Shown here piece by piece: positions 23,748-46,032 of a DNA stretch of 64,000 nt. Within the stretch, counting starts at the first letter, position 1. Every line of letters starts with the position of its first letter. The position numbers and the translations under genes are program-made. The stretch is from Candidatus Nomurabacteria bacterium (GTDB lineage: Bacteria > Patescibacteriota > Patescibacteriia > HK-STAS-PATE-3), in the NCBI GenBank assembly GCA_023898465.1, contig CP060223.1:448001-512000 (forward strand). Direction: 5' to 3'. Below the pieces are notes generated by a model. The model searched no databases, was not told where the DNA came from, and saw only the letters and a program-made list of their open reading frames with translations.

Positions 23748-23756
23748 TAATCCCAT

Positions 23757-25061: not shown

Positions 25062-25064
25062 GGC

Positions 25065-26030: not shown

Positions 26031-26031
26031 T

Positions 26032-26985: not shown

Positions 26986-26990
26986 TACCT

Positions 26991-27938: not shown

Positions 27939-27940
27939 CC

Positions 27941-28831: not shown

Positions 28832-28858
28832 CCATTTAGTATTCAGAAAAGTAAGCAT

Positions 28859-29575
28859 ATGATGGATCTCGATATACTTAAGAAACGTGCTGATGATCGC
28901 TGGTTTGTAGTGGATCGATCAAAAGGCAAAAGGGTCTTAGAAATCGGTTGCGTAAACCATACTATTGAAGGAATTGAGGAGCAGCGCAGGATTGGCACTT
29001 GGCTTTTTGATTATCTCCACGTGTATGGAACTCATGCTACTGGTATTGATATTGACCAACCAGCAATTGACCATTTAGCCAAACAGGGCTACGACATCCG
29101 GTATGGAGATGGGCAAGATTTTAATCTGAACGAAGAGTTTGAAGTTATTATTGCATCAAAAGTAATTGATCATCTTACCAATATTGATGGTTTCCTAAAA
29201 AGCTGTAAAAAGCATCTCTCTCCCGACGGTAAACTCATTATCACTGATGACAACATTCTCTGCGTTCCTCAGCTCCTGACATGGTATGCAAAGAAAAATG
29301 TTGGACATCCTGACGATGATATAACTGTAAAAATTATTCCGGAGTACTTCCGCCTCTTTGTGAGGCGCTATGGCTTTGAGGTCGAAGAAATACATTATGT
29401 AGTTGGCACAGGAAATTCTTTTCTCTTCAAGCTGTTCCGTTTCATAAAAAAAATAATGCCAAAGCGCCTAGTACATGAACCGCTTTTTTATCCAAACTAC
29501 ATCATTCAATTACGTCATCGTACGAATGAAGAGAGCGAGAAGGGTGCTACTGCACATCACTCGCATCAGCACTAG
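28859..29575 (+). CDS. Class I SAM-dependent methyltransferase
   Basis: VLEIGCVNH (motif I-like), ...IIASKVIDHL..., LSPDGKLIITD (motif III-like). Confidence 0.55.
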   Translation: MMDLDILKKRADDRWFVVDRSKGKRVLEIGCVNHTIEGIEEQRRIGTWLFDYLHVYGTHATGIDIDQPAIDHLAKQGYDIRYGDGQDFNLNEEFEVIIASKVIDHLTNIDGFLKSCKKHLSPDGKLIITDDNILCVPQLLTWYAKKNVGHPDDDITVKIIPEYFRLFVRRYGFEVEEIHYVVGTGNSFLFKLFRFIKKIMPKRLVHEPLFYPNYIIQLRHRTNEESEKGATAHHSHQH

Positions 29576-32057: not shown

Positions 32058-32059
32058 TA

Positions 32060-34012
32060 CTACTCTACAAAAGTGAAAAAATTATAGTATCCCGTAGAAT
32101 ATTCTAATCGAAATTTATCTTTTAATCGAGACTCTTCGACAATCTTCATCCTCAAATCTTGATCTTGAAAAAAATGATAAGAAGGGTCAAGTTGAGATTT
32201 AATAATATCGGATCGACGATAATAGCTCGACTGCATATCCTCTTTTGTAAAAAGTGGGGCTAAACGCTGATAGTCAGGCTCTGCATTTGCGGTAATAAGA
32301 TAGCGGACATGATACGCTTGCATTGTTTTTGCTAAACCACGAATAGCTATCGAATCTTCAAGTTTAGTTTCATCTAGAATATCAACATTTGCAAAACTGG
32401 GACGCCCTGATCCTATCGTAAGTGTCATTACAAAACTCTCATCAATATATATATCATCTAAGTCCGTATGCTGACGTAAATATGTTAGTGCATCTAAGTA
32501 TTCGGGACGTTGTTTTTCTAAGCGAACTTGAATTGCGTGCAGGTTTACTGGAAAGAGCCAGATGAAAGCATTAGCCAGAAAAAGAAGCATAAAAATCCTT
32601 TTATTGAGAAGCTTGGCAATACCATACAAGGTCAAGGCTGCCGAAAAACACAAAAAAACTAGAATTATCAAGGTGTAATAATTATGAAAAAAGATTACCT
32701 TGGAAGCGAGAATGAGATAAAAAACTGACGAAAATCCCAAAGTAATACCCATGTGCAAAATTCGCTTATTTGATTCTGTTTTTTGAAAAAAAATCAGAGG
32801 ACTGCAAATTATCCCTGCTATTGCCAACCACGCTATTGGAGTTGTAACATACTCGCGCAATTGAGAAAGCAATTCTTTATACATCGGCCAATAGAGAATC
32901 AATTGCCCGTCGGTCAAAAATTCTTTTACTGTATTTGAGTCTTTATTTTCCAACCAATAAAGAGTTATTCCTATAAAAACTAATCCGATACAAGCATACT
33001 TCCAAATTTGAAATTTTTGCACAAAAGCAACTATAGTTGCTATATATCTGGAAAAACGATGTCGGTAATGGATAAGGAGAAGTAAGGCGAGTAGCCAAAA
33101 AACAATAATAAAAGCGTCGCGTATGGGATAGCGCGGGAGACTAGATACAGCAGTCACAAGCATCCCGTATGGAATTGCCGCGATGAAAAAAAATGTAAGG
33201 CTTTGCTGAATAAAAAAAGAGATATTTTTTCGTTGTAACCAAAGCAACAATAGTGCAGCGGGAAGAAGCCACACACCAATAGAATCTTTCATCGTCAAAC
33301 CTAAACCAAAGCAAAGGCCAGCGGACATGATATAGACAGGATCTTTGGTTTTGAGTGACTCCGACAAAAAGGCTAAGGTTAAAAATGTACAAAGCAGCAA
33401 CAAATTATCATATACGGTAACAAAACTCGCAAAGCTAAGAATGGGATTTAACGCGAGTAAGCTTATTACTATTAACGAAGGGAATTTACTTATCCAATAT
33501 CGCAAAAAAATATATCCAGCGATTAAGGTGAGCATTCCGATCAAGTGTGTAAGTAAACGAGTATTCCATTCAAGCGAATTCTGAGGCAGCAGAGTATAAG
33601 TACCTGCTAAAGACCATTCCAAAACTGGAATGTGTGAAAAATCATTAAAAATTCCTTGGGGATTGCTTACGGGATTTGCTAAATATTTCCTTTGATGCCA
33701 AAAGGGATTTTTCATTTCAATCATGTGGAGCGCCGGCTCTACATAGGTGTTGTACTTTAATTCATGTTCACCAGTAAAATTGTATGAAAAATATGGAAGC
33801 TTAATCAGGGTCCAAGCGAATAGGATCAAGAAGAGAAACGTAAGGGCAATCCAGTTTTCACGAACGATAAAACGAAAAAACGATCCGAGGATAGGCAACT
33901 CCGCGAAACGTGGGAAGCGCGTCCTAAAGACCTCTACCCTCTTCGCGTCGTTCTGAGCCTCATTTTCACTTTCTTGCCCGATTTGTTTACCGAGCCTAGT
34001 TAGTACATTCAC
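32060..34012 (-). CDS. Large polytopic membrane protein, GT-C-like glycosyltransferase candidate, paralog B (650 aa)
   Basis: About 13 hydrophobic segments, a domain paralogous to the 836-aa neighbour, and a C-terminal soluble domain. Confidence 0.5.
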   Translation of the reverse strand: MNVLTRLGKQIGQESENEAQNDAKRVEVFRTRFPRFAELPILGSFFRFIVRENWIALTFLFLILFAWTLIKLPYFSYNFTGEHELKYNTYVEPALHMIEMKNPFWHQRKYLANPVSNPQGIFNDFSHIPVLEWSLAGTYTLLPQNSLEWNTRLLTHLIGMLTLIAGYIFLRYWISKFPSLIVISLLALNPILSFASFVTVYDNLLLLCTFLTLAFLSESLKTKDPVYIMSAGLCFGLGLTMKDSIGVWLLPAALLLLWLQRKNISFFIQQSLTFFFIAAIPYGMLVTAVSSLPRYPIRDAFIIVFWLLALLLLIHYRHRFSRYIATIVAFVQKFQIWKYACIGLVFIGITLYWLENKDSNTVKEFLTDGQLILYWPMYKELLSQLREYVTTPIAWLAIAGIICSPLIFFQKTESNKRILHMGITLGFSSVFYLILASKVIFFHNYYTLIILVFLCFSAALTLYGIAKLLNKRIFMLLFLANAFIWLFPVNLHAIQVRLEKQRPEYLDALTYLRQHTDLDDIYIDESFVMTLTIGSGRPSFANVDILDETKLEDSIAIRGLAKTMQAYHVRYLITANAEPDYQRLAPLFTKEDMQSSYYRRSDIIKSQLDPSYHFFQDQDLRMKIVEESRLKDKFRLEYSTGYYNFFTFVE

Positions 34013-34020: not shown

Positions 34021-35367
34021 CTATCGCCCAATTCCTCGATAGTGCACGCCGGCCTTTTGCAAAGCAGACTTATCAAGCGCATTTTTACCGTCGATGAGGA
34101 CTTTTACATGATATTTCTTCCAGAGCTTGTTTGGGATATCGAGAAATGCCTGATGGTTTGTCACCAGAATCACTGCGTCTACCTTTGATAATAGAGCCTC
34201 TAGGCTCTCCACTGTGGATTTTTGTGGTACATGAGGGTCATACACCTCTACTTGCGCGCCAAGCTCTCTAAGACGCTCCTGAATGCGAAATGAGGGACTC
34301 TCGCGCACATCATCGATGTTGGCCTTATACGCTACCCCTAATATGCCTACTTTCGTACCCTTCACAGGCAGAGCAACTTGATTTAGTGCCTCTATGAGCT
34401 GCTTTACGGTATACTCTGGCATTCCATTATTAATCTCCCTCGCTAGCTTAAGGAACTTATGATCAAAGCCAATCTGCCTTGCTCGCTCAATGAGATAATA
34501 TGGATCAACGGGTATACAATGACCTCCAACGCCGCATGAAGGATAATGCGCTAAAAAGGCAAAAGGCTTTGTCTGAGCACCTTCAATAACATCTAAAATA
34601 TCAATGCCCAATTTGCTAAATGATTGTGCCATCTCATTCACAAAGGCAATATTAATATCGCGAAAAGAATTTTCCATTATCTTTGTCGCTTCCGCGGCCT
34701 TGAGAGATTCCATTGGCCGGATTGGCGCATCAATAATACTCTCATACAGCCGGATTGCCTTTGCTCTACCTTTTTTGGTATACGCGCCAATTACCCTGGG
34801 AATCGTTCGCACATTCCATTTTGCATTACCCGGATCAATTCGTTCAGGGCAATGCGCTAAGGTAAAATCTTTACCAGCATGAAGCCCAGATGTTTCTAAC
34901 ACGGGAAGGAGAACTTCTTCGCAAGTTCCAGGATTAATGGTGGACTCAATAATAATCAATTGTCCTTTGTGAAGATGCTTCGCAATTTTTTTACATGCAT
35001 CGATTACTGGACCATAATCAGGATTGTATGCGTGGTCAACTGGTGTAGGTACGCAAACAATTATAGCTTTTGCCTTTTTCACTACACTAAAATCAGTTGT
35101 AGCTAAGAAAGGATTCTTTTTTAAATTTTTACGGACTCGCACATCATCAATCGGAGATACACCAGCGCTGATCATTTCTGCTTTTTTTTGACTTCGAACG
35201 ACTCCCAGGACCTTATATCCCTTTTCAACAGCTAAGCATGCAAGTGGAAGACCAACATAACCCAATCCAACAACGGCTAAAGCCCCTTTCCTAGTTTTTT
35301 GTGAACGAATAGCACGCTTTTTACTTCGCATACTTTTGCTGCTTGAAAAACCAAGAGACTGTTTCAT
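34021..35367 (-). CDS. UDP-sugar 6-dehydrogenase family (UDP-GlcNAc/UDP-ManNAc dehydrogenase-like, WbpA/WecC type)
   Basis: LAVVGLGYVGLPLA Rossmann motif and catalytic Cys context GGHCIPVDPYY. A basic N-terminal extension suggests the true start may be the internal Met at about 35331. Confidence 0.8.
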   Translation of the reverse strand: MKQSLGFSSSKSMRSKKRAIRSQKTRKGALAVVGLGYVGLPLACLAVEKGYKVLGVVRSQKKAEMISAGVSPIDDVRVRKNLKKNPFLATTDFSVVKKAKAIIVCVPTPVDHAYNPDYGPVIDACKKIAKHLHKGQLIIIESTINPGTCEEVLLPVLETSGLHAGKDFTLAHCPERIDPGNAKWNVRTIPRVIGAYTKKGRAKAIRLYESIIDAPIRPMESLKAAEATKIMENSFRDINIAFVNEMAQSFSKLGIDILDVIEGAQTKPFAFLAHYPSCGVGGHCIPVDPYYLIERARQIGFDHKFLKLAREINNGMPEYTVKQLIEALNQVALPVKGTKVGILGVAYKANIDDVRESPSFRIQERLRELGAQVEVYDPHVPQKSTVESLEALLSKVDAVILVTNHQAFLDIPNKLWKKYHVKVLIDGKNALDKSALQKAGVHYRGIGR

Positions 35368-36256
35368 TTATACCCATAGCAACATCAATGCTCGGCCCCC
35401 AATTCAACTCCTTGGCACTTTTTTGCACATCAAGACTACTCGCCATCAATTCACCGGGAATCTCCGGACCGTGCTTTGCTTCAAGATCGCTGTGCATGGA
35501 ATCTTTTATTAAGCTCCAAAGCTGGCTGATGCTGGTTTCTTGACTCGTACCAACGTTGAATATGCCGACACGATCCGAGTCAGCCGCCGCAATAAAAGCC
35601 CGCACAACGTCGGAAACGAATACGAAGTCTCGAGTTTGCGATCCGTCACCATTAATTTGCGGTGAACGATTGTGCAATACGTGATCAATAAATATTGCCA
35701 CTACACCCGCTTCACCCTTTGGATCTTGCCGAGGGCCGTATACATTTGCTAAGCGGAGTGCTGCGCTGGGCATCTTATACACTTTCGTATAAGCCGAAAG
35801 ATAATACTCAAAGGCCCGCTTCCCTATTCCGTACGGTGAAATAGGTGCAGCTAAACCAGTTTCTGGAGTTGGTCTTGCCTCATCTGCATCATAAATCGCC
35901 CCGCCGGTTGAGGCAAAGAGAAACTTCTCTACCTGTATTTCACGAGCCGCTTCAAGTAACTTAATACTACCAATAATATTAATATTGGCATCTTCGTCTG
36001 GATGTTCAAGTGAGTAGCGTAGATTTTTTTGCGCAGCTAAGTGAAATATCTGGTTCGGCTTAAACCTTTTAATTTCCTGAGCGGTCTTATCTTTACAGAT
36101 ATCAAGTTCTAAGAAATCAACCTCCGGATGCAAATACTCTTTATTGCCGGTGGACAAATCATCTATCACCAATACTCGATTACCCTGGGAGAGCAGCGCG
36201 TCAACCAAGTGAGAACCAATAAATCCAGCTCCCCCAGTTACGACGACTTTGCTCAT
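35321..36256 (-). CDS. NAD-dependent nucleotide-sugar epimerase (GalE/WbpP-like)
   Basis: [31 protein letters not shown] (YxxxK), [12 protein letters not shown]. Confidence 0.8.
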
Positions 36257-37428
36257 AGGTATTTTTTGGCCGCCGATCGGAATTTAGCAGCTAAGGAGAG
36301 TTGCTCCCAACTAAAGCTTGCTTCTTTACGACCGAAGTGTCCATACGCTGCGGTTGGTCGATAAATAGGCCTACGTAAATTAAGGTGTTGGATAATACCA
36401 CCAGGAGTCAAATCCGCCACCTGGCGAACGATCTTTTCTAATTTACCATCGCTAATGACACCTGTGCCTTTTGTGTCGATAAGCACGCTGATAGGTTCAG
36501 CAACGCCAATGACGTAGGCGAGCTGTATTTCGCACTTCTTGGCAAGCTTTGCGCCGACAATATTTTTGGCAACATGTCTAGCCATGTATGAAGCTGATCG
36601 GTCAACCTTGGAAGGATCTTTACCAGAGAATGCTCCACCACCATGGCTACCGTGTCCTCCATAGGTATCGACAATAATTTTTCGTCCGGTCAAGCCTGCA
36701 TCAGCTGGAGGTCCACCCTTCACAAACTTTCCTGTCGCATTAATGAAGTGACGTGTTTTATTATCCATCCAGCGTCCTGCTATTGGTCGGATGACGTGCT
36801 TCATGACATCGCGCTCGACTTTTTTCTCGCTTACTTTTTCATTATGCTGCGTAGCAATAACAACAGTGTTTAAACGCTTTGCTTTACCATTTTCGTATTC
36901 GATCGCTACCTCAGTTTTACCATCCGGCCCTAAATAAGGCATTATTCCTTTCTTTCGCACGTATGCTAAGCGACGAGAAAGTTTATGAGACAGAATAATC
37001 GGCAATGGCATTAACTCAGGTGTTTCATCAGTGGCATAACCAAACATGAGTCCCTGATCACCTGCTCCTTGCTTTTTATACTTACCCTTACCCTCATCTA
37101 CACCCTGCGCAATATCAGCGCTCTGCTCATCAATTGCGACGATCACGCCGCAGTCCTGCCAATGAAATCCCATATTTGGATCAGTGTAGCCAATATCCCG
37201 AATAGTCTCTCGAGCTATTTTTGCAATATCAACATATCCCTTTGTCCTTATCTCTCCTGCAACAACAATCAAGCCGGTAGTTGCCATGGTTTCGACACCT
37301 GCGCGACTATGGGGATCCTGTCGTAATAATTCGTCAAGTATTGCGTCTGATATTTGATCGCACACCTTATCAGGGTGGCCTTCGGTTACTGACTCTGAAG
37401 TAAAGACATGATGTCGATTCGTTGACAT
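36253..37428 (-). CDS. metK: S-adenosylmethionine synthetase
   Basis: [57 protein letters not shown] and IGVAEP, near-identical in pattern to E. coli MetK throughout. Confidence 0.95.
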
Positions 37429-37447: not shown

Positions 37448-38473
37448 TTACTGGTCTTTTGAAATACTAGCTGAAATATCAATATTTTTTGCGCCTTTAA
37501 AGTAATCAATGGTCCGGCGTAAGCCTTCTGATAAGGCCACTACTGGAAACCAGCCTAAGCGCTCTTTTGCCAAAGCTATATTAGGCACGCCCTGTATAAC
37601 TGTTGACTTAGTGTGTTCGGTAAAACGAGATCCTGATGTACTGCCCGTAAGTTCTTGAATGTACTTTACTACATCCTCTAGGCGATGTTGATCAGGACTA
37701 CCCAGATTAACTGGCCCTAACTCGCTTGATTTCATGAGTCGCAGTAAGCCCTCCACAATATCGCTGATGTAACAAAGAGTCGTGGTATCATCTGCTTTAC
37801 CGTATACCGTAATAGTTTCGTTACGCAACGCCGCATTAATCATTTCCGGCACCATTCTACCATCGTCTACGCGCAAGCGAGGACCATAGGTGTTAAAGAG
37901 TCGGGCGATTTTTGCCTTTAATGCGTATTTTTCTCGGTAGTGCACGGTTAAGCTTTCGGCAAAGCGCTTACCCTCACTAAAGGCCGATCGCGACCCAACC
38001 GGATTCACATAGCCCCAATATTCTTCTGGGTATGGAGTCCTTTCCATGGGTTCGCCATAAATGGCATCAGAAGAAGCCAAGAGAAAACTGGCTTGATATT
38101 TTTTCGCCATTTCAAGAGCATTCCGAGTTGCTTGAGCATTTGCTACCAGTGTTTCAACTGGCATCTGTAGATAATCCTTTGGTGAAGTCGGAGAGGCGAA
38201 ATGATAAATTTCCTGCACTCCTTGGAACTCCACTTGAAAAGGTTTAAGACCTGGCTCGTGATCAAGATCTATCGGATCAGACAAATCATGCTTCACAAAC
38301 TCAAAATTTGGATTTTGGAGAAGATGATTTATGTTTTCTTCTCGACCAGTTGAAAAATTGTCTAAACAAATAACCTTGTGTTGCTTCACCAGCTCATCAC
38401 AAAGATGAGATCCAATGAATCCTGCTCCACCTGTTACTAATATGTTTTTTCTTTCAAAAATGGGTCTGCTCAT
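37448..38473 (-). CDS. UDP-glucuronate decarboxylase (UDP-xylose synthase)-like SDR
   Basis: [53 protein letters not shown] closely parallels the UXS/ArnA-C N-terminus. YxxxK is present (YSEGKR). Confidence 0.7.
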   Translation of the reverse strand: MSRPIFERKNILVTGGAGFIGSHLCDELVKQHKVICLDNFSTGREENINHLLQNPNFEFVKHDLSDPIDLDHEPGLKPFQVEFQGVQEIYHFASPTSPKDYLQMPVETLVANAQATRNALEMAKKYQASFLLASSDAIYGEPMERTPYPEEYWGYVNPVGSRSAFSEGKRFAESLTVHYREKYALKAKIARLFNTYGPRLRVDDGRMVPEMINAALRNETITVYGKADDTTTLCYISDIVEGLLRLMKSSELGPVNLGSPDQHRLEDVVKYIQELTGSTSGSRFTEHTKSTVIQGVPNIALAKERLGWFPVVALSEGLRRTIDYFKGAKNIDISASISKDQ

Positions 38474-38482: not shown

Positions 38483-39199
38483 TTAACGATAATGACCTAA
38501 AATGTCATGGTATCGAACACTAAGAAGCTCCCAAAAAGTTTTTATATAATCTGAGGGACGCACCTTACTAGCAAAATCATTCTTCCAAGTCACAGGAATT
38601 TCCTTCATCGTGAAGTGAAATTTTTTTGCCAGGAAAAGTATTTCAAAATCAAATCCCCACCCTCGTAGCTGCTGCTTTTGAAAAAGCATACGGCAGCGCT
38701 TACTATACAGTTTAAATCCGCATTGCGTATCTTCTATGCCGGACACTGCTAACCATTGAATCAACTTATTTCCAATTCGTCCCAGCGTTACCTTCACCGA
38801 AGATTGACGAACGGTAATATCAGCTTCGGGTAATGCTCGCGAGCCAATCAACACATCATACTGCTTACGCTCCGGCCAAAACTTAGCGAAATCTTGAATC
38901 GGAGTGGAGAGATCAGTATCGGTCAGCAACACCCAGACACCTCTTGCTTCTAGCATTCCAGCCTTAACGGCAGCACCTTTACCGCCATGTGGCACAGAAT
39001 GCACCCGGACCGGCTTCCCATAACCAGCTGCTAATCGAGCAGTACCATCCGTGCTACCATCATCCACCACCACTACCTCGTAGCTAAGATCGGGGTAGTG
39101 CTTGGGGAAATATTCAAGGATAGTTTCCAAGCTGGGAGGCAGGCGCTTCGCTTCATTATACGCCGGCAAAACAATGGAAAGCTCAACAGGATTTGACAT
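38483..39199 (-). CDS. GT2 polyprenyl-phosphate glycosyltransferase (DPM/DPG synthase-like, soluble)
   Basis: LSIVLPAYNEAKRLPPSLE...VVVVDDGSTDGT...LTDTDLS. No C-terminal TM helices. Confidence 0.75.
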   Translation of the reverse strand: MSNPVELSIVLPAYNEAKRLPPSLETILEYFPKHYPDLSYEVVVVDDGSTDGTARLAAGYGKPVRVHSVPHGGKGAAVKAGMLEARGVWVLLTDTDLSTPIQDFAKFWPERKQYDVLIGSRALPEADITVRQSSVKVTLGRIGNKLIQWLAVSGIEDTQCGFKLYSKRCRMLFQKQQLRGWGFDFEILFLAKKFHFTMKEIPVTWKNDFASKVRPSDYIKTFWELLSVRYHDILGHYR

Positions 39200-39299: not shown

Positions 39300-39731
39300 T
39301 TAATGCTGACGAAAGGTCCAAAATTTATTGGCAAAAAAATTCCAAAATAGCACAATGAGCACTGACACTATCTTTGCATAAATATCGTGCAATCCTACTA
39401 CGACAACAAAAAACCAAAGTCCTAATTCGGTTAGTACTGCGCCTACCGCACTCACAGCGACAAAGCGAGTGTATTGCCGACGAAAGGCTCTTTGACGATC
39501 ACGAAAAGTCCAGCGCTTATTTAAGGTAAAGCTTAAACTTACTGCGCTTAAAAATGCAACCGCGTTTGCTGCTAAAAAGGGAACGTGAAAAAAACGAGTG
39601 AGCGAAAAATAAATACTAAAGTCTAGGCAGGTATTCCCAAACCCAACAACACCAAACTTAATAAATTGCGCCAGGCCAGGCCGGCGCTCAATGAATGGGT
39701 GTTGGCGAATGTAGTTAACAAGCTGCTGCAT
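39300..39731 (-). CDS. GtrA-family membrane protein
   Basis: 143 aa with 4 TM helices and FIKFGVVGFGNTCLDFSIYF...RWTF, the GtrA signature. Confidence 0.7.
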   Translation of the reverse strand: MQQLVNYIRQHPFIERRPGLAQFIKFGVVGFGNTCLDFSIYFSLTRFFHVPFLAANAVAFLSAVSLSFTLNKRWTFRDRQRAFRRQYTRFVAVSAVGAVLTELGLWFFVVVVGLHDIYAKIVSVLIVLFWNFFANKFWTFRQH

Positions 39732-42526
39732 TATCTTGGCTCAAAGTTTGCTCCAACGCTGATGCCACCGCGGAAAGCTGGATCAAAAGTAAACATTTGT
39801 TCAATGACACTTCCGTTACCATCAAAAACTCTCAGGTGTGGCCCTCCGCCAATCCCTGCACCCACAATGATATCGTCAGCCCCATCAGCATTCACATCCG
39901 CGCTCGCAATGCGTACTCCTCCGCGAAAATTCTCGGCAAAAGCGAAAAATTGAGACTGCACTTCCCCACTCGCATTAAATACTCGAACATGCGGTCCACC
40001 ATTACTTAAAGGAGCAACGACTATTTCTGATACGCCATTACCATCCACATCACCAACTGCCAGGTCTAAACCGATTCTAAAGTAGCTTGGGTAAGCGAAA
40101 AATTGAGAGACCAGTCCTCCACTCCCATTAAAAACACGCACATGTGGCCCACCGTTACTAATTGGCGCTACAACAATTTCAGGAATAGCATCCCCAGTCA
40201 CATCACCACATGCAACAGAGAGACCTATGCGAAAATATGATGGGTAGGCATAAAATTGACCGTATAAGCCTCCGCCGCTAAAAATGCGCACTTGGGGCGC
40301 TTTTCCTGCACCAGTACCCACAATAATTTCATCACGTCCATCACCATCCAAGTCGCAGGTTGCAATGCTTACTCCACCTCGATAACTTGGCGCATAGGCC
40401 ATAAACTGGTATTCCAAAGCCCCACGCGAGGAAAAGACGCGAATGTGTGGACCACCACTTGAAGCTGGCGCGCTTACAAATTCCATTAATCCATCTCGAT
40501 CAATATCACCTGAAGTAATATTCACTCCTCCAGTAAAGTTTGGAGCATAGGCCATTGTCTCCCATAGGAGACTCCCATCCTGACGCAAGGTTCGCACGGT
40601 TGGACTATGGTTGCTTAAAGGCGCGCTGAGTAGATTAACCCAAACGTCGTAGTTCATCGTATCAGTCGCTGTGCTCACTAACCCTGCCTGATCAGTGGCC
40701 TTCACTGTCACGGTGTTCAATCCCGGCCCTAAAGTAAGCACGCCGGAGTAGGTATTGCCATCACGAAAAGCAAGACGCCCATTCACGGTCACTTCAGCAA
40801 TTCCTGAATCATCGTCACGTGATACGCCAACGATATAATGACGTCGATTCCCGGTTGAGCTACCTGCAAAAGGATACGTTATGGTAACCGTTGGAGCCAG
40901 GGTGTCGATTTTTACTTCAAAGCTATGGGCACTTTCAATGTTGTCAGCAAGATCTTCGGCATAATATTCCACAGTTATATTACCTTTAGGCAAAGTCACT
41001 GCACTGGAGTATGTCTGCCAACTACCGCTATTAATGCGATAAAAAATTGCACTCACCCCAGCGGCATCATCGCTAGCGGACAATGTCATCTGCGGGGCTG
41101 TGCTATAAAAACCATTTTGGCCGTTTGGACTACTGGGACTGAGACTAGCTGAGGATACTGGCGGCGTAACATCAGTAGTGATAACAGACAAGCCGGCATC
41201 AATATCTAAAAGCCCGTATCCATACTCGAGATCATAGCCACTACTACCGAGGTCCTTAGCTGTTTCAGTAAGCACGCCTTTAGCATCAGCAGGATCAGCG
41301 CCGGCTGCTAAAAAGAGTGCTAAGGCAGCACTCACATGTGGAGTGGCCATCGACGTGCCCTGATAGCCCACATAACCAAAAGTGGTAAAATCAGCTGGTA
41401 GGCTATCCCCATCGAGGTTTGTGAATCCTTGCTGGATAATTGATGAGGAGCCATCCCCGCCTGGTGCAACCAAGGCGATATTTTGTCCATAATTAGAGTA
41501 CGAGGCGCGAGTATTTTGTGTGGTATTTCCGGTAGCTCCCACGGCAATAACTCCTGAGGTGCGAGCTGGGTATAGCAAGGTTGAGCTATTTGCATTTCCG
41601 GTAGCAGCGACCACTAGAATTCCCTGAGCAATAGCATCATTTACTGCGTCAGTCAGAGCCTGACTGTAGCTACTTGTTCCCAAGCTCATGGATATAATAT
41701 CAGCGCCGTGTGTTCGCGCATAATCAATCCCCTGCGCAATATCAGCAGTAGTACCATATCCATCTCTGGCTAAAACTTTAACCGGCATGATTGTGCTGTG
41801 ATATGCCAAACCCGCAGCGCCGAGGCTGTTATGTGTTGTCTCTGCTATGGTGCTACTTACATGTGTACCATGTCCATTATCATCATTCGGATGAGTATCT
41901 TCGTTTACAAAGTCATATCCAGTTGTGAAATTTGTGGCACTAAAATCTGGCGCTTTTGCATACTCTGCACCAGCTGATAAGCAATTACCCGGATTTTCTA
42001 CTAAACACTTCGCTGGGTTAGGGTCTGTATATGCTTGATAGGCAACGCCAGTATCTAAGACTGCGACGATAACACTCGGATCACCACCATGGGTTGGACT
42101 GCTCGTGTCATAATCCCAGGCCTGAGACGCTTTTACCTTTGTAAAATTCCATTGCTGGTTATACAAAGGATCATTAGGAGTGAAGGTTGCTCCTACTAAA
42201 TAATTTGGCTCTATATACCGAGTCTCAGGCAATGAGGCAAGTCTATCCTGCAAATCATTTGCCTCAGTTTCATTTGGTAATGAAAAAAGAAAACTCTGCG
42301 CACTTAATTGCTGCACAGTTAAGGAGGGAAAGGTCGAAAGTATAGTGGCGAGATGATCATTATCGGTAATAATGTCACCTTCCTCATTTGCACTTATACC
42401 AGTTGTGGTAAATCCCACAACCCGCTGACCAGGATATACAAACTGACTTTGCGCTTCTACTTGCGGACTAAAAAAACTGAAAATCCAAACTAGAACTATT
42501 CCGCCTATGAAGCGCCCCCATCTCAT
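39731..42526 (-). CDS. Secreted subtilisin-like serine protease (S8) with Ig-like domains and C-terminal FG-GAP beta-propeller
   Basis: Signal peptide MRWGRFIGGIVLVWIFSFFSPQVEA. Catalytic triad motifs AVLDTGVAY (Asp), HGTHVSST (His), GTSMATPHVSAA (Ser). About 7 C-terminal repeats of the form FRGGVSIATCDLDGDGRDEIIVGTG...PQVRIF, an FG-GAP/integrin-alpha-like propeller. Confidence 0.85.
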   Translation of the reverse strand: MRWGRFIGGIVLVWIFSFFSPQVEAQSQFVYPGQRVVGFTTTGISANEEGDIITDNDHLATILSTFPSLTVQQLSAQSFLFSLPNETEANDLQDRLASLPETRYIEPNYLVGATFTPNDPLYNQQWNFTKVKASQAWDYDTSSPTHGGDPSVIVAVLDTGVAYQAYTDPNPAKCLVENPGNCLSAGAEYAKAPDFSATNFTTGYDFVNEDTHPNDDNGHGTHVSSTIAETTHNSLGAAGLAYHSTIMPVKVLARDGYGTTADIAQGIDYARTHGADIISMSLGTSSYSQALTDAVNDAIAQGILVVAATGNANSSTLLYPARTSGVIAVGATGNTTQNTRASYSNYGQNIALVAPGGDGSSSIIQQGFTNLDGDSLPADFTTFGYVGYQGTSMATPHVSAALALFLAAGADPADAKGVLTETAKDLGSSGYDLEYGYGLLDIDAGLSVITTDVTPPVSSASLSPSSPNGQNGFYSTAPQMTLSASDDAAGVSAIFYRINSGSWQTYSSAVTLPKGNITVEYYAEDLADNIESAHSFEVKIDTLAPTVTITYPFAGSSTGNRRHYIVGVSRDDDSGIAEVTVNGRLAFRDGNTYSGVLTLGPGLNTVTVKATDQAGLVSTATDTMNYDVWVNLLSAPLSNHSPTVRTLRQDGSLLWETMAYAPNFTGGVNITSGDIDRDGLMEFVSAPASSGGPHIRVFSSRGALEYQFMAYAPSYRGGVSIATCDLDGDGRDEIIVGTGAGKAPQVRIFSGGGLYGQFYAYPSYFRIGLSVACGDVTGDAIPEIVVAPISNGGPHVRVFNGSGGLVSQFFAYPSYFRIGLDLAVGDVDGNGVSEIVVAPLSNGGPHVRVFNASGEVQSQFFAFAENFRGGVRIASADVNADGADDIIVGAGIGGGPHLRVFDGNGSVIEQMFTFDPAFRGGISVGANFEPR

Positions 42527-43743
42527 GTCGACAGTGAACTTAAGATAACTTTACTGTTTTGCGTTACACCGTCCCGTAAGTAATTTATATCCACTTCAGC
42601 GCCTATAGTCACGGACTGGAGTAATTGCTGCAAGCTGTGGGACTGGTCAATATTTTGACCATTCACGGAGATAATGATGTCGCCGTCTTGTAGACCCGCC
42701 TCGCTGGCCGGCCCACCCTCAACAACTGCTGGGTCAGCCGCGGTCCCTGCCAACAAAAACCCATCATTTCGCTGATTCGTTTGGCTCTCACTTAATCCTA
42801 CTGAGTTATGCAAATCATAACCATGCACACCTAATCGAGTCCGTGTGATAAGTCCTGAACTGGTATAGGCCTGAAGAGCTGTTCGTATATATACAACAGG
42901 GAAAATACGATTTGGATTTTCTTGTTGCAAATATATACCTTGCAGAGAACCGTTTTGATCAACCACAATTGACCCCGGGCTCACCGCCGCTTCTCCACTC
43001 AGCAAAATATCGTGGGATAAGACCTCGCTTGATTCAAGCGAAAGCGGATCACTGTTTATTGATGCATTTGCGCTGACTAACTGCGTACTACGAATTTGCG
43101 GCACTCCAAGTGATCGATTCGCACTTAAAATATATAGCCCTTGCCCGGCGTGCAAATCCGCAGCTACACCAAAGCTCAATACTTGGTATTGCTCTCCGCT
43201 CACTTGACCAAGGCTTAGATCGCTAATTGGATCATAGGCAAGAATACTTACGTCCAACTTTTTTCCTGCATTAGTATATGCGACAACCTGACCACTAATG
43301 GTACTTGCATTAACTTTTCCATCAAAAACAAAGATACCATCAGTGGTAACAAAAGCTCCTGTACCAAGGTACGTGTACTGAGTATCCTCAACTTGATATA
43401 CACTAAGGAGTGATTGAGTCACTCGGTCATAAAGCGCCTGCCTGTCTTGGTCAATCCGATCGGTGCTCCCTGTCTCCCGAATAATAACCTCTCGAGCCTC
43501 ATTTGAGGTTTCTGCGAGACGAATATCTCGCCAAAAAGGCCATTGAGGGTTCTGTTGATATAGACTATTGAGAAGTACCATCCCTACTGCCCCAGATAAC
43601 AAACCAAATAGAACCGTGAAAAGAAGAATAGAAATCCAAGAAACTCGTTTACTTGGTTGCTCAATTGTACTTTGGTTATAAAGCTTCTCAACTGAGGCTT
43701 CTTGGGAATATTTTGGGGATGTGGGAGCGATCTTTGGTTTCAT
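42523..43743 (-). CDS. Membrane-anchored trypsin-fold (HtrA/DegP-like) protein with C-terminal PDZ domain; catalytic triad uncertain
   Basis: N-terminal TM helix (ILLFTVLFGLLSGAVGMVLL). The PDZ-like GLQDGDIIISVNGQNI segment is near the C-terminus. The expected GNSGG Ser motif is replaced by AAVSPGSIVVD. ATGA overlap with the S8 gene. Confidence 0.5.
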   Translation of the reverse strand: MKPKIAPTSPKYSQEASVEKLYNQSTIEQPSKRVSWISILLFTVLFGLLSGAVGMVLLNSLYQQNPQWPFWRDIRLAETSNEAREVIIRETGSTDRIDQDRQALYDRVTQSLLSVYQVEDTQYTYLGTGAFVTTDGIFVFDGKVNASTISGQVVAYTNAGKKLDVSILAYDPISDLSLGQVSGEQYQVLSFGVAADLHAGQGLYILSANRSLGVPQIRSTQLVSANASINSDPLSLESSEVLSHDILLSGEAAVSPGSIVVDQNGSLQGIYLQQENPNRIFPVVYIRTALQAYTSSGLITRTRLGVHGYDLHNSVGLSESQTNQRNDGFLLAGTAADPAVVEGGPASEAGLQDGDIIISVNGQNIDQSHSLQQLLQSVTIGAEVDINYLRDGVTQNSKVILSSLST

Positions 43744-43753
43744 ACTTGTACAA

Positions 43754-44518
43754 CTAAACCCAGGAGGCGGTTCCTAATATAATCACGAGTAAGATAAATG
43801 ATAACACAAGAGGACGCAGTATCATGTTGCGTTCAATTTTCTCCTTTAATGCAGCCCGATGCATGGCCACCAAGGTGTAGTAAATGATTGTAATAACAGC
43901 TCCATTTACAATGAAATTTGTTGGAAAAAAGCTCATCACGATAAAGACCTCACTGAGCATGATGGAAAAAACAGCAAACCAGCGCCAACCCCGCACATCC
44001 AGGGTCTTTTTTACCCATAACATTTCATAAGAAACGCTCACGACTACTAAAACCCAAAAAGGCAAGAGCATGAACCAGTTAAATCCCAAAAAAACTATCA
44101 TTCCGTAAAGAGAGGCGCTGGCAAAGAACATAACCACTAACGCAAATCCATTTGAAAGGTTTTCTAAAGCAAAGGGTTGATATCTACCCGGCGAGTAGTG
44201 GTAATGAAAGATTTGTCGATAATAAAAACCAAGAGCAAACGGGATGATAATAGTGATGCCCCATCGAATAAATGACGAGGTGATAAACAAGACAATACTT
44301 TGACTACTGAGATATAACCAAAATGGCAGGATAAGAAGTGACCAAAAAGTTAGCGACCTCCACTGCCGTCCAGCTAGCAAATACACACTAAGGATATTCC
44401 ACACCGTGAGAATGGCGCCGATTATCCAAACTAAGCCAGGACGGAGAGTGAGGACAAACATCCCGCTAAGGAAGACTATTGTTGAAAAGGCTGGTAAAAA
44501 TCTAATAAACGCAAGCAT
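43754..44518 (-). CDS. Hypothetical polytopic membrane protein
   Basis: 254 aa with about 7 hydrophobic helices, in the same minus-strand operon. Confidence 0.4.
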   Translation of the reverse strand: MLAFIRFLPAFSTIVFLSGMFVLTLRPGLVWIIGAILTVWNILSVYLLAGRQWRSLTFWSLLILPFWLYLSSQSIVLFITSSFIRWGITIIIPFALGFYYRQIFHYHYSPGRYQPFALENLSNGFALVVMFFASASLYGMIVFLGFNWFMLLPFWVLVVVSVSYEMLWVKKTLDVRGWRWFAVFSIMLSEVFIVMSFFPTNFIVNGAVITIIYYTLVAMHRAALKEKIERNMILRPLVLSFILLVIILGTASWV

Positions 44519-44519
44519 G

Positions 44520-45137
44520 CTATATTCTTCCTAAACCATTTGGGTTATAACCGTTTTTTACCTCTTCGCCATCACTAAAACCGTCACCATCGCTATCTTC
44601 TTCAGTCGGATCAGTTTGATATACATACACCTCTAGAAGGTCGTTTAAGCCATCACCATCGGTGTCGCTTTTCTCTGGGTCAGAGCCATATTGCGCCTCT
44701 AGACGATCGAGTAGTCCATCATTATCTGTATCGGTTCGATATGACACCGAGCTATTTACATTACTCGTATTCGTATTTTGATTTACTGCCCTACTGCTTG
44801 ATGTAGCACTCGTCTGAGTTTGCTGGACTTCACTTGCATTTGTTCCTGGTTGACGTTCAGGTAAAATTCGACGGATCGAATCTTGTAATGCATTCGTGGT
44901 GGAATTTGTTGTTGCTTCAGAGTCATCTTTTTTTGGCACGAGTAAAAGAATTCCACCCCCAACTATTACAATCCCGCTGAGAGAAAGGAGTAGCATGGTA
45001 AATACCCGAGGACTCTTGGGCGATATAACTTTCTTAACATCTGGCTCACTAAATGCGACTGGTTCATCAGGCAAACCAGGACTGTTCAGGGTCCCGCGAG
45101 AGTCGTCGTGCTCAAATTCTGAGTTGGTCTCGGGCAT
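44520..45137 (-). CDS. Membrane-anchored protein with S/T/N-rich linker and C-terminal thrombospondin-type-3-like Ca-binding repeats, paralog 1
   Basis: TM helix VFTMLLLSLSGIVIVGGGILLLV, a low-complexity TTNSTTN...SATSSS stretch, then DTDNDGLLD, DTDGDGLNDLLE and DSDGDGFSDGEEVKNGYNP. Confidence 0.55.
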   Translation of the reverse strand: MPETNSEFEHDDSRGTLNSPGLPDEPVAFSEPDVKKVISPKSPRVFTMLLLSLSGIVIVGGGILLLVPKKDDSEATTNSTTNALQDSIRRILPERQPGTNASEVQQTQTSATSSSRAVNQNTNTSNVNSSVSYRTDTDNDGLLDRLEAQYGSDPEKSDTDGDGLNDLLEVYVYQTDPTEEDSDGDGFSDGEEVKNGYNPNGLGRI

Positions 45138-45143
45138 AGCTCA

Positions 45144-45863
45144 TTAACTCTCGAGTCGACCGGATCCCAGAGGGCTATATCCGTTATTTACCTCTTCACC
45201 ATCCAAATAGCCGTCGCCATCGGAATCAGGGTTCAATGGATCGGTGTTATATATGTACACTTCTTTAAAATCGCCAAGATCGTCTCCATCGCTATCACTT
45301 AGGGTTGGATCAGTACCAAGAGCAGCCTCTTGCGTATCAGTTATGCCATCTCTGTCAGTATCAACGTTGGAATTTGTGTTTTGCGCACTGCTGTTTTGAT
45401 TCGACTGATTTGTACTTGTGTTCGTGTTTGACGTATTTGTAGCCTGATTAGCATTTGAGGTGTTTGTATTTGTGGTAAATTCGGTACCAGTATTCAAATT
45501 ACTCGTATTAGTATTGCTTGTGCGATTTACCACAGTGTTACTTGCCTGATTGCTTACCGTATTGGTCGTTTCTGTATTTACATTAGTATTGGTGTCGCTG
45601 GGTAAAAAGAAGAAGTAATATGCAGCCGCTCCACCCGCTACCACCACCAGGATAACGAGGAGTACCCAAAGCCAAGCCTTAGATCCTTTTTTAGGTGGAG
45701 GCGTTTGTGCCTGCCACTGAGGCTGAGGCGGAGTATTTTGATTTTGTTGCGGAATAAAGGGATTTTGAGGTGCTGGCGGAGGTGTAGCTTGTGGAAAACT
45801 TGGAGCTGCACGCATGCCTTGATCTGGCTGCGCTGTTGGTGTTGACTCTTGGTTCTCAAACAT
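45144..45863 (-). CDS. Membrane-anchored P/Q-rich and T/N-rich protein with C-terminal TSP3-like repeats, paralog 2
   Basis: Start at ATG (rc of 45861-45863). PQ-rich N-terminus, TM helix AWLWVLLVILVVVAGGAAAYYFFFL, (NTNTSN)n region, then DTDRDGITD, DSDGDDLGDFKE and DSDGDGYLDGEEVNNGYSP. C-terminus homologous to paralog 1. Confidence 0.55.
   Translation of the reverse strand: MFENQESTPTAQPDQGMRAAPSFPQATPPPAPQNPFIPQQNQNTPPQPQWQAQTPPPKKGSKAWLWVLLVILVVVAGGAAAYYFFFLPSDTNTNVNTETTNTVSNQASNTVVNRTSNTNTSNLNTGTEFTTNTNTSNANQATNTSNTNTSTNQSNQNSSAQNTNSNVDTDRDGITDTQEAALGTDPTLSDSDGDDLGDFKEVYIYNTDPLNPDSDGDGYLDGEEVNNGYSPLGSGRLES
45390..45600. repeat. Imperfect tri/hexanucleotide low-complexity tract (gtattt/tgtgtt-like) encoding the T/N/S-rich linker
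   Basis: Visible runs such as ttgtgttcgtgtttgacgtatttgtagcctgattagcatttgaggtgtttgtatttgtgg within the coding region of paralog 2. Confidence 0.5.
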
Positions 45864-46032
45864 ACAAATCCCCTTTACATTAATTACAACGCCTTGAGTG
45901 TACCTGATTTTATAAAAAAAGACTAGAGAATAATATCGAGAGATTGTCAACTCTCTACCAAAAAGCCCCAGTTGGTACTGGAGCATGATTGGTATCGCCG
46001 GCTTACTAAGGAATTCGGCGAGAAGTTCTCAA

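What the first reader, a model, noticed from the sequence alone, without database searches (positions are those of the whole stretch)
39731..45863. Surface protease/adhesin-like module co-transcribed with the glycan genes: S8 subtilase with FG-GAP propeller, HtrA-like PDZ protein with atypical active site, tandem TSP3-repeat proteins
A 931-aa secreted S8 protease (intact D/H/S motifs) ends in about 7 FG-GAP repeats forming an integrin-alpha-like propeller. It is translationally coupled (ATGA) to a membrane-anchored trypsin-fold/PDZ protein. The expected GNSGG serine motif of that protein appears replaced (AAVSPGS), so it is possibly a pseudoprotease or scaffold. Upstream lie a 7-TM protein and two paralogous membrane-anchored proteins with S/T/N-rich (likely glycosylated) linkers and DxDxDG calcium-binding TSP3-like repeats. 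The whole set sits in one minus-strand operon continuous with GtrA and the sugar-nucleotide genes, suggesting the glycan locus may decorate these surface proteins.
Basis: partly seen in the sequence, partly recalled or inferred. Interest (0 to 1): 0.55.

Follow-up and report, generated by a model that had tools for sequence, protein, structure and literature searches.

The report
Dead HtrA, subtilase, glycan gene cassette

Summary
The window comes from a Candidatus Nomurabacteria genome.

- **Subtilase:** the 931-aa S8 protein has an intact D158/H219/S392 triad plus N311.
- **Coupling:** its start overlaps the stop of the upstream gene (ATGA). That gene encodes a single-pass membrane protein with an HtrA fold and one PDZ domain.
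- **HtrA-like protein:** it is a pseudoprotease. His is replaced by Lys and the GNSGG loop is gone. In 145 family representatives none of the three triad columns is conserved, while the PDZ loop residues are.
- **"7-TM" protein:** it is a 9-helix distant relative of DUF5656.
- **TSP3 proteins:** the two proteins are paralogues.

New here:

- In 19 distinct loci the DUF5656 protein always sits directly upstream of the pseudo-HtrA.
- An S8/FG-GAP protein follows in 14 of 18 readable cases.
- GtrA, a polyprenyl-phosphate-type GT2 and UDP-xylose synthase come next.
- The TSP3 genes are lineage-specific.
- Two unexplained motifs stand out: the cytoplasmic N-terminus M-K-x-K-x-x-P-T-S-P-K of the pseudo-HtrA, and the external tail T-A-x-W-x-COOH of the DUF5656 protein. 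The tail resembles known HtrA PDZ ligands.

The function is inferred, not shown. Whether the glycan decorates these proteins is untested.

The parts
45144..45863 (-). TSP3-A: type-II membrane protein of 239 aa from the ATG at 45863. It has a Pro/Gln-rich cytoplasmic N-terminus, one TM, an 86-aa linker (67% S/T/N) and three DxDxDG TSP3 repeats. It is a lineage-specific accessory gene.
   Evidence: TSP3_bac 42.8 bits. TM, linker and motifs. Shine-Dalgarno-like AAAGGGGA lies before the ATG at 45863. Paralogue of TSP3-B, E 4e-33.
44520..45137 (-). TSP3-B: 205-aa paralogue with one TM, an S/T/N-rich linker and three TSP3 repeats.
   Evidence: TSP3_bac 68.4 bits. Details.
43754..44518 (-). Nine-helix membrane protein (254 aa), a distant DUF5656 relative and the invariant upstream partner of the pseudo-HtrA. 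Conserved features: YQPxALEN (113-120), K171, E190, P199-T200, and the C-terminal tail T250-A-S-W253-V.
   Evidence: AF2 pLDDT 85.4, nine helices. Conservation. DUF5656 scores 9.9 bits here, below the 23.3 cut-off, and 18.9-20.5 bits in two orthologues. PF18900 is precomputed for it and its homologues. No fold match in the PDB. N-in/C-out topology from K+R counts.
43757..43771 (-). C-terminal tail TASWV of the DUF5656 protein, predicted to lie outside the membrane. It is a candidate PDZ ligand.
   Evidence: Every tail read ends [TS]-x-x-W-x(1-2)-COOH. Human HtrA3 PDZ ligands FGRWV and RSWWV are cited in PMC9361347.
42523..43743 (-). Pseudo-HtrA (406 aa): cytoplasmic N-terminus, TM at 39-57, inactive chymotrypsin-fold domain at about 110-295, and a PDZ domain at about 301-400.
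43711..43743 (-). N-terminal motif MKPKIAPTSPK, conserved at the protein level.
   Evidence: T8, S9 and P10 are invariant in 56 sequences. The motif is present in 78 of 145 representatives. Synonymous sites vary among loci.
39731..42526 (-). Pre-pro S8 subtilase (931 aa): signal peptide, propeptide-like region ending in IEPNY, catalytic domain 151-438, S/T/P linker, two beta-sandwich domains, and six FG-GAP units at 641-931. No membrane anchor.
   Evidence: ATGA overlap with the upstream gene.
39734..40606 (-). FG-GAP propeller region with six ~51-aa units. The N-terminal strand WVNLLSAP probably completes the last blade.
   Evidence: Motif positions. FG-GAP and FG-GAP_3. FG-GAP is present in all five other S8 orthologues tested, including the short ones of 618-712 aa.
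39300..39731 (-). GtrA-family four-helix membrane protein. Its start overlaps the S8 stop (TAATG).
   Evidence: GtrA_DPMS_TM 103.6 bits. Overlap read. GtrA follows the S8 gene in 9 of 9 loci with enough sequence.
38483..39199 (-). GT2 catalytic domain of the polyprenyl-phosphate glycosyltransferase type (GtrB/DPMS/ArnC-like), without a TM segment.
   Evidence: Glycos_transf_2 80.8 bits. Best solved relatives are GtrB sll0501 at 4.8e-9, DPMS at 5.3e-8 and ArnC at 1.1e-7. No TM.
37448..38473 (-). UDP-glucuronate decarboxylase (UDP-xylose synthase), the most conserved gene of the cassette.
   Evidence: 8.2e-83 and 281.7 bits to human UXS1. E 1e-119 to 1e-162 across loci.
36253..37428 (-). S-adenosylmethionine synthetase (MetK), embedded in the run and conserved there in many loci.
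35321..36256 (-). GalE-like nucleotide-sugar 4-epimerase.
   Evidence: 5.2e-77 to a UDP-glucose 4-epimerase, PDB 4zrm.
34021..35367 (-). UDP-glucose 6-dehydrogenase.
   Evidence: Three UDPG_MGDP_dh domains.
29547..34012 (-). Two PMT_2 (ArnT/PMT-like GT-C) membrane glycosyltransferases: 32060-34012 and 29547-32057. They lie next to the cassette only in this window.
   Evidence: PMT_2 45.1 and 29.1 bits. Not seen in the flanks of the other loci.
45864..46032 (-). Intergenic region upstream of TSP3-A, with a terminator-like hairpin (45984-45965) after the preceding gene. It is the probable start of the transcription unit.
   Evidence: These are pattern matches only.

Best explanation
This is a cell-envelope biogenesis cassette conserved in Parcubacteria-group (Patescibacteria) bacteria.

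Shown:
1. A nine-helix DUF5656-type membrane protein and a membrane-anchored, catalytically dead HtrA homologue with an intact PDZ domain form an invariant gene pair.
2. In most lineages the pair is followed by an active, anchorless, secreted S8 subtilase carrying an FG-GAP propeller. Its gene overlaps both the pseudo-HtrA gene and a GtrA gene.
3. Next come a GtrB/DPMS/ArnC-type GT2 catalytic domain and a UDP-xylose synthase. In this window a 4-epimerase, UDP-glucose dehydrogenase and two ArnT/PMT-like GT-C transferases follow.

Inferred:
1. UGDH and UXS (with or without the epimerase) make a UDP-pentose.
2. GT2 together with GtrA acts as a split DPMS-like enzyme. It loads the pentose onto polyprenyl phosphate and helps bring it to the outer face.
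3. GT-C enzymes transfer it to an envelope acceptor, either a wall polymer or S/T-rich proteins.
4. The pseudo-HtrA does not cut. It works as a transmembrane scaffold or holdase.
5. Its external PDZ domain holds the conserved ...T-A-x-W-x-COOH tail of the DUF5656 partner.
6. Its conserved cytoplasmic PTSPK N-terminus contacts a cytoplasmic partner.
7. The S8 protease is the only catalytic protease of the set. It is kept at the surface either by this scaffold or by its propeller binding the glycan.
8. The two TSP3 proteins are lineage-specific calcium-binding surface proteins and possible clients.
For: - Domain calls.
- Active S8 triad invariant in orthologues.
- Loss of all three catalytic positions across the family: the His column is S/D/K/A/E with H in 5 of 145, the Asp column is G43/D40, the Ser column is S54/A47/G23, and canonical G[NDS]SG[GS] occurs in 6 of 145. 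Structural residues and the PDZ loop residues R301, G305, G328 and D355 remain conserved.
- HtrA fold.
- Family size: 1,417 50%-identity clusters at E<=1e-30.
- Synteny over 19 distinct loci: DUF5656 upstream in 19 of 19; S8/FG-GAP downstream in 14 of 18; GT2 directly downstream in 2; GtrA after S8 in 9 of 9; GT2-UXS after GtrA in 8 of 9.
- Start/stop overlaps.
- UXS identity. GT2 nearest to GtrB/DPMS/ArnC and lacking a TM. The Pfam family of GtrA is named GtrA/DPMS transmembrane domain.
- DUF5656 topology N-in/C-out, and a universal C-terminal Trp tail that resembles the measured HtrA3 PDZ ligands FGRWV and RSWWV (PMC9361347).
Against: - There are no expression, protein or glycan data.
- Co-transcription rests on spacing and synteny only. 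There is a 100-nt gap with a promoter-like site before the GT2 gene.
- All loci are from one superphylum, so part of the synteny could be inherited order.
- GT-C transferases are adjacent only in this window.
- The last residue of the DUF5656 tail is variable (V, I, T, Y, F, R, H, A), which is unusual for classical PDZ ligands.
- The sugar carried by GT2 is guessed from its neighbour UXS.
- In two loci (L016, L021) the pair sits beside Wzz/Wzy/GT4 genes instead.
- The pseudo-HtrA model is only moderately confident (pLDDT 69).
Confidence: 0.5

Rival explanations
1. The S8/FG-GAP protein is simply a secreted nutritional or host-attacking exoprotease. The HtrA-like protein is a general envelope quality-control factor. 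The neighbouring glycan genes are unrelated housekeeping genes that stay adjacent through inherited gene order in small, syntenic genomes.
For: The nearest solved relatives of the S8 domain are degradative subtilisins such as Savinase, thermitase and AprV2. MetK, a housekeeping gene, sits inside the same conserved run. In other lineages LepA and MurJ lie just upstream. All loci are from the Parcubacteria group.
Against: The order persists at 23-29% identity of the HtrA-like protein, with overlapping stop/start codons at S8/GtrA in most loci. S8 and GtrA are present or absent together while the flanks stay in place. A quality-control protease would be expected to keep its triad.
Confidence: 0.2
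2. One reading: the glycan pathway O-glycosylates the proteins of the module itself: the S/T/N-rich linkers of the TSP3 proteins and the S/T/P linker of the S8 protein. This would use the two PMT_2 GT-C enzymes. The pseudo-HtrA would present unfolded clients for glycosylation.
For: The linkers are 46-67% S/T/N. An S/T/P stretch follows the S8 domain. Two PMT_2 enzymes lie in the same run. GtrA plus a polyprenyl-phosphate-type GT2 are present.
Against: TSP3 genes are absent from most loci that keep the cassette. PMT_2 genes are not adjacent elsewhere. No glycosylation evidence exists.
Confidence: 0.2
3. The HtrA-like protein is still a protease that uses an unconventional mechanism, for example a Ser258/Lys143 dyad in this organism.
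For: In the window protein a Lys sits at the His position, and a Ser remains next to the conserved Gly257.
Against: Neither residue is conserved in the family. K occurs in 15 of 145 at the His column, and S in 54 of 145 at the Ser column with A in 47 and G in 23. The oxyanion-hole loop GNSGG is shortened or absent.
Confidence: 0.05

Closest known systems
HtrA/DegP/DegS family (MEROPS S1C) membrane-anchored PDZ proteases
   Same: Chymotrypsin-fold domain followed by a PDZ domain. An N-terminal membrane anchor as in DegS. Sequence and fold homology. The PDZ loop residues are conserved.
   Different: The catalytic His, Asp and Ser are not conserved in the family, and the GNSGG loop is missing. 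It scores 68 bits against the 416-bit cut-off of TIGR02037. It has a conserved cytoplasmic PTSPK N-terminus and an obligate DUF5656 neighbour. Public records nevertheless call it 'serine protease'.
Three-component lipid-linked glycosylation systems (GtrA/GtrB/GtrC; ArnC/ArnE-F/ArnT; Ppm1/PMT) and Pyrococcus DPMS, a GT2 fused to a GtrA-like membrane domain
   Same: A GtrA-family protein, a GtrB/DPMS/ArnC-like GT2 and, in this window, ArnT/PMT-like GT-C enzymes. UGDH plus a UDP-glucuronate decarboxylase recalls the first steps of the Arn pathway.
   Different: The GT2 has no membrane segment, so the arrangement looks like a split DPMS. There is no aminotransferase or formyltransferase in the run, so a neutral pentose is expected. 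The module is wedged against a protease/pseudoprotease set. The acceptor is unknown.
Subtilases with accessory domains (subtilisins, mycosins, dentilisin PrtP)
   Same: An S8 catalytic domain with a full triad, and a pre-pro organisation.
   Different: It falls below the equivalog cut-offs for mycosin (136 vs 279 bits) and PrtP (105 vs 300 bits). It carries a C-terminal six-unit FG-GAP propeller, and its gene overlaps a GtrA gene.
Clostridial Csp germination proteases, in which the active S8 CspB works with the pseudoproteases CspA/CspC
   Same: The concept of an active protease encoded next to a catalytically dead protease homologue that acts as a regulator or scaffold (from general knowledge; only a weak CspBA hit).
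   Different: Here the dead partner has a different fold (S1C, not S8). The context is the envelope and glycan synthesis, not spores.
Integrin-alpha-type FG-GAP propellers, including the fungal lectin PVL
   Same: FG-GAP repeats with DxDxDG-like calcium loops.
   Different: Six units rather than seven. The propeller is fused to a protease. Sugar binding is only an analogy recalled from memory.

Membership tests
HtrA/DegP (S1C) serine proteases | Chymotrypsin-fold protease domain homologous to DegP | tested here: met
   phmmer 3.4e-11 to DegP-like chains. Foldseek E 6.7e-20, probability 1.0, to MucD/DegP/DegS. Trypsin_2 scores 27.5 bits, just under the 27.6 cut-off.
HtrA/DegP (S1C) serine proteases | Catalytic triad His-Asp-Ser with a GNSGG-type loop | tested here: not met
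   His is replaced by Lys143 and the loop reads SPGSIVV. Across 145 family members no triad column is conserved.
HtrA/DegP (S1C) serine proteases | At least one C-terminal PDZ domain | tested here: met
   PDZ_2 48.5 bits and PDZ_6 47.6 bits.
HtrA/DegP (S1C) serine proteases | Curated family score (TIGR02037 degP_htrA_DO, 416.2 bits) | tested here: not met
   68.1 bits.
Subtilase S8 | Peptidase_S8 domain with Asp/His/Ser and an oxyanion Asn | tested here: met
   181.3 bits. D158, H219, S392 and N311 are invariant in orthologues.
Type VII secretion mycosin | Equivalog score of 278.75 bits | tested here: not met
   136.2 bits. No ESX genes were seen nearby.
FG-GAP / integrin-alpha propeller | FG-GAP repeats above the Pfam threshold | tested here: met
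   FG-GAP 47.6 bits (cut-off 22.1) and FG-GAP_3 68.4 bits (cut-off 26.9).
FG-GAP / integrin-alpha propeller | Seven blades | tested here: not met
   Six repeat units at a ~51-aa period. No structure model was made for this protein.
Bacterial TSP3 repeat proteins | TSP3_bac repeats with DxDxDG calcium motifs | tested here: met
   68.4 and 42.8 bits against a cut-off of 25. Three motifs in each protein.
DUF5656 (PF18900) | Pfam gathering score of 23.3 bits | tested here: inconclusive
   The window protein scores 9.9 bits and two orthologues score 18.9-20.5 bits over nearly the full profile. PF18900 is listed in precomputed annotation for it and all homologues.
Gtr-type three-component glycosylation system | GtrA-family membrane protein | tested here: met
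   GtrA_DPMS_TM 103.6 bits.
Gtr-type three-component glycosylation system | GtrB-like polyprenyl-phosphate GT2 | tested here: inconclusive
   The best solved relatives are GtrB sll0501, DPMS and ArnC, but only at E 5e-9 to 1e-7. The usual C-terminal TM helices are absent. The substrate was not tested.
Gtr-type three-component glycosylation system | GT-C transferase that uses the lipid-linked sugar | tested here: inconclusive
   Two PMT_2 proteins lie in the same run in this window. They are not adjacent in the other loci.
UDP-xylose synthase (UDP-glucuronate decarboxylase) | Close full-length homology to characterised UXS enzymes | tested here: met
   8.2e-83 and 281.7 bits to human UXS1 over residues 7-327. 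Activity was not tested.

The most novel reading that the evidence does not exclude
The DUF5656 protein and the dead HtrA homologue form a transmembrane adaptor specific to Patescibacteria. The PDZ domain would clamp the external Trp tail, and the PTSPK N-terminus would dock on the cytoplasmic side. The adaptor would physically couple cytoplasmic synthesis of a polyprenyl-phosphate pentose to extracytoplasmic glycosylation and S8-dependent maturation of the cell surface. That would be a new kind of envelope-assembly machine in bacteria whose surfaces are thought to mediate their symbiotic lifestyle.
Probability: 0.2. Interest if true: 0.7.

Novelty: new variant of a known kind. Interest (0 to 1): 0.5.

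Why it matters
Patescibacteria (CPR) make up a large share of bacterial diversity. They are thought to live attached to hosts, and their envelope biology is almost unknown.

- **A testable module:** a cassette conserved over deep divergence gives concrete hypotheses about how these cells build or decorate their surface. It combines a pseudoenzyme scaffold, an unknown membrane fold, one active protease and a lipid-linked pentose pathway.
- **Annotation:** a family of more than a thousand sequence clusters is labelled 'serine protease' or 'serine protease Do' in public records, although it lacks the catalytic residues.
- **Two handles for experiments:** the short invariant motifs (N-terminal PTSPK and C-terminal TARW-x) are easy to use in binding studies.

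Tried and rejected
- **S8 C-terminus as the PDZ ligand:** rejected. The S8 C-termini are not conserved; they end in R, K, P, K, I, L, Y or E.
- **N-terminal motif as an RNA or DNA element:** rejected. Synonymous positions vary freely among 12 loci.
- **Membrane protein as an exosortase-like enzyme:** rejected. It has no cysteine (sequence).
- **Promoter/terminator scan:** uninformative. It found 35 promoter-like sites against 37.8 expected, and 16 terminator-like sites against 16.9 expected.
- **The search for related loci with the 56-sequence alignment:** failed because no stretch was conserved enough. A 12-sequence alignment worked but used one narrow pattern and returned only 9 loci.
- **afdb50 fold library:** not available.
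- **Literature searches:** DUF5656, Patescibacteria with subtilisin/GtrA, CPR S-layer glycosylation with subtilase, pseudoprotease with HtrA and PDZ, and Patescibacteria with UDP-xylose found nothing relevant.
- **Cluster look-up for taxonomy:** it gave names for only two of ten clusters.

Full report
**Source and layout**

The HtrA-like protein is 100% identical to a record named 'MAG: serine protease [Candidatus Nomurabacteria bacterium]' on a 1,082,586-bp contig. The window is therefore from a Parcubacteria-group (Patescibacteria/CPR) genome.

On the minus strand, downstream of tRNA-Gln (46914-46987) and a small Host_attach/baeRF-like gene (46033-46689), lies a tight gene run:

| Gene | Coordinates |
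|---|---|
| TSP3-A | 45144-45863 |
| TSP3-B | 44520-45137 |
| Polytopic membrane protein | 43754-44518 |
| HtrA-like protein | 42523-43743 |
| S8 protein | 39731-42526 |
| GtrA | 39300-39731 |
| GT2 | 38483-39199 |
| SDR (UXS) | 37448-38473 |
| MetK | 36253-37428 |
| Second SDR (epimerase) | 35321-36256 |
| UDP-glucose dehydrogenase | 34021-35367 |
| Two PMT_2 GT-C proteins | 32060-34012, 29547-32057 |

From TSP3-A to GtrA the gaps are 6, 1 and 10 nt, followed by two overlaps. A 100-nt gap then precedes the GT2 gene.

- The ATGA overlap between the HtrA-like stop and the S8 start was read directly. So was the TAATG overlap between S8 and GtrA.
A terminator-like hairpin from the previous gene lies upstream.
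- The consensus promoter/terminator scan did not exceed shuffled controls. Co-transcription is therefore an inference from spacing and synteny.

**Checking the domain claims**

*S8 protein*
- It scores 181 bits on Peptidase_S8 and has FG-GAP and FG-GAP_3 hits above threshold.
- D158, H219, S392 and N311 are invariant in orthologues sharing as little as 36% identity.
- Its nearest solved relatives are ordinary subtilisins. It fails the mycosin and PrtP equivalog cut-offs.
- Between protease and propeller lie an OmpL47-type barrel (66 bits against a 40-bit cut-off) and a Glucodextran_B-like sandwich (38.9 bits).
- The propeller region has six units of about 51 aa, not seven. The stretch WVNLLSAP before the first unit looks like the strand that closes the last blade. 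This is my reading of the sequence.
- Apart from the signal peptide there is no hydrophobic anchor.

*TSP3 proteins*
- They are paralogues (38% identity, E 4e-33).
- Each has one TM, a linker rich in S/T/N, and three DxDxDG motifs.

**The HtrA-like protein is a pseudoprotease, and so is its family**

- It aligns with DegP-like chains over residues 124-404 (E 3.4e-11).
- Its AlphaFold model (pLDDT 69) matches MucD, DegP, DegS and mycobacterial HtrA at Foldseek E about 1e-19.
- In the DegP alignment the catalytic His falls on Lys143 (FVFDGKV against ILTNNHV). The Asp is kept (ISDLSL). The GNSGG loop is replaced by a shorter SPGSIVV.
- A profile search of 1.84 billion cluster representatives found 1,417 proteins at E<=1e-30.

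The top 145 single-domain members of similar length gave these counts:

| Position | Residues found in 145 sequences |
|---|---|
| His column | S31, D25, K15, A13, E13, ... H5 |
| Asp column | G43, D40, P16, N12, ... |
| Ser column | S54, A47, G23, T7, ... |
| Canonical G[NDS]SG[GS] | 6 sequences |

By contrast, structural residues stay invariant or nearly so: G127, D135-G136 and D171. So do the PDZ residues R301, G305, G328, A346 and D355.

A Ser/Lys dyad peculiar to this organism cannot be excluded by sequence alone, but it is not a family property. Public records call these proteins 'serine protease' or 'serine protease Do', which overstates what the sequences support.

**Two unexpected motifs**

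*The N-terminal motif of the pseudo-HtrA*
- The family's cytoplasmic N-terminus reads M-K-x-K-x-x-P-T-S-P-K.
- T8, S9 and P10 are invariant in a 56-sequence alignment whose members share 22-55% identity with the window protein.
- The motif is present in 78 of 145 representatives.
- Codons differ freely at synonymous sites, so the selection acts on the peptide.

*The membrane protein and its C-terminal tail*
- The upstream membrane protein folds confidently (pLDDT 85.4, pTM 0.83) into nine helices, not seven.
- It has no meaningful match among solved structures.
- It is a distant DUF5656 relative.
- Conserved features are YQPxALEN at the start of helix 5, K171, E190, P199-T200 and a C-terminal tail.
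- Counts of Lys and Arg per loop across ten orthologues give an N-in/C-out topology. The tail is therefore outside, on the same side as the PDZ domain.
- In every orthologue read, the protein ends [TS]-[TAS]-x-W followed by one or two residues. Examples are TASWV, TARWI, TARWT, TAQWY, TTRWF and TAAWR.
- Measured ligands of the human HtrA3 PDZ domain are FGRWV and RSWWV, with tolerance at the last position (table quoted in PMC9361347).
- This resemblance is a lead, not a test. It does make the tail a natural candidate ligand for the neighbouring PDZ domain.

**Conservation of the neighbourhood**

I read 19 distinct loci, counting this window.

| Feature | Count |
|---|---|
| DUF5656 gene directly upstream of the pseudo-HtrA gene (gaps of 3-26 nt) | 19 of 19 |
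| S8/FG-GAP gene directly downstream | 14 of 18 readable |
| GT2-UXS-MetK directly downstream, without S8 or GtrA (L015, L018) | 2 |
| Wzz, Wzy_C or GT4 genes downstream instead (L016, L021) | 2 |
| GtrA after S8, where enough sequence is available | 9 of 9 |
| GT2-UXS after GtrA | 8 of 9 |

- The pseudo-HtrA proteins in these loci share only 23-29% identity with the window protein. They come from at least two candidate phyla of the Parcubacteria group.
- All five other S8 orthologues tested keep FG-GAP repeats, while the Ig-like middle part varies between 618 and 961 aa.
- S8 and GtrA appear or disappear together.
- TSP3 genes are present only in the window, L001, L003/L004, L005 and L011. 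Elsewhere other small genes, a bPH_2 protein, LepA and MurJ lie upstream.
The constant element is the DUF5656 protein plus the pseudo-HtrA, attached to a glycan module. S8 plus GtrA is a frequent insert, and the TSP3 genes are a local addition.

**The glycan genes**

- The first SDR is a UDP-glucuronate decarboxylase (8.2e-83 to human UXS1). It is the most conserved gene of the cassette.
- The second SDR is GalE-like.
- The GT2 is nearest to GtrB, archaeal DPMS and ArnC, all of which load a sugar onto a polyprenyl phosphate. It lacks their membrane helices.
- The adjacent GtrA belongs to the Pfam family now named GtrA/DPMS transmembrane domain. The pair therefore looks like a split DPMS-type enzyme.
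- With UGDH this suggests the route UDP-glucose to UDP-glucuronate to UDP-xylose (possibly UDP-arabinose), and then to a polyprenyl-phosphate pentose. This recalls the Arn pathway without the amination steps.
- The two PMT_2 (ArnT/PMT-like) enzymes in this window could use such a donor, but they are not adjacent in the other loci.
- All of this is inference from homology.

**Most likely mechanism**

I favour a surface-assembly module, with confidence about 0.5 for the overall picture and lower for each detail.

- The dead HtrA homologue acts as a scaffold or holdase, tied to the DUF5656 protein through PDZ-tail and cytoplasmic contacts.
- The S8 enzyme is the only protease. It is held at the surface by the scaffold or by its propeller binding the glycan.
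- The GtrA/GT2/UXS genes supply a lipid-linked pentose for modifying a wall polymer or S/T-rich proteins.

Rivals:
- Unrelated neighbours kept together by inherited gene order.
- An unconventional active site in the HtrA-like protein.

**Novelty**

Every part belongs to a known superfamily. I found nothing in the searchable literature on four things:
- the family-wide inactivation of the HtrA-like protein;
- its obligate DUF5656 partner;
- the two motifs;
- the cassette as a whole.

I rate it a new variant of a known kind, of moderate interest. It is well defined and testable, but its function is still inferred.

Noticed in passing
window 46033-46689 (-): A small protein matches Host_attach (28.8 bits, cut-off 26.7) and bacterial eRF1-like (baeRF) families. 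It lies just upstream of the TSP3 genes. An orthologue sits at the same place in L001 (E 3e-32) but not in more distant loci.
   Followed up: partly
window 14231-29575 (+): A low-GC (37-40%) polysaccharide gene cluster converges on the minus-strand run. Among the 12 ORFs scanned it holds an SDR dehydratase/epimerase, three GT2, a GT4, two FkbM methyltransferases, an ABC exporter, a DegT aminotransferase, WbqC, an ATP-grasp protein and a weak GH130-like hit. With the cassette it forms a glycan-related region of about 30 kb.
   Followed up: partly
window 36253-37428 (-); also L001, L003, L005, L011, L013, L015: The SAM synthetase gene metK is embedded between the UDP-xylose synthase and the epimerase. 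It keeps that position after UXS in many distant loci. This is odd for a housekeeping gene, unless methylation of the glycan is involved.
   Followed up: no
L007, L008, L009, L010, L014, L017, L020 (upstream of the DUF5656 gene): In other lineages the pair is preceded by MurJ (lipid II flippase family), LepA and a bPH_2 membrane protein. This places the cassette in a cell-envelope neighbourhood.
   Followed up: partly
window 8000-12300 (+): A GC-rich stretch (52-53% against about 44% around it) holds two long ORFs. One (8979-10502) has no Pfam match. The other (10506-12284) has a Peptidase_M23 domain.
   Followed up: no
window 50239-52581 (-): A 780-aa protein has a TrwB/type IV coupling protein-like ATPase domain and a HerA-type DUF87 domain.
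   Followed up: no
L003/L005/L007/L008 downstream parts: A second GT2 paired with a ~110-aa membrane protein recurs a few genes after the cassette. Pfam calls that protein DUF2304 in L003-L005; in L007 and L008 the assignment is by position only. This suggests a second lipid-linked sugar step.
   Followed up: no
P0001, P0003, P0018, P0042 (public names): Members of the catalytically dead family are annotated 'serine protease', 'S1C family serine protease' or 'serine protease Do' in public records.
   Followed up: yes
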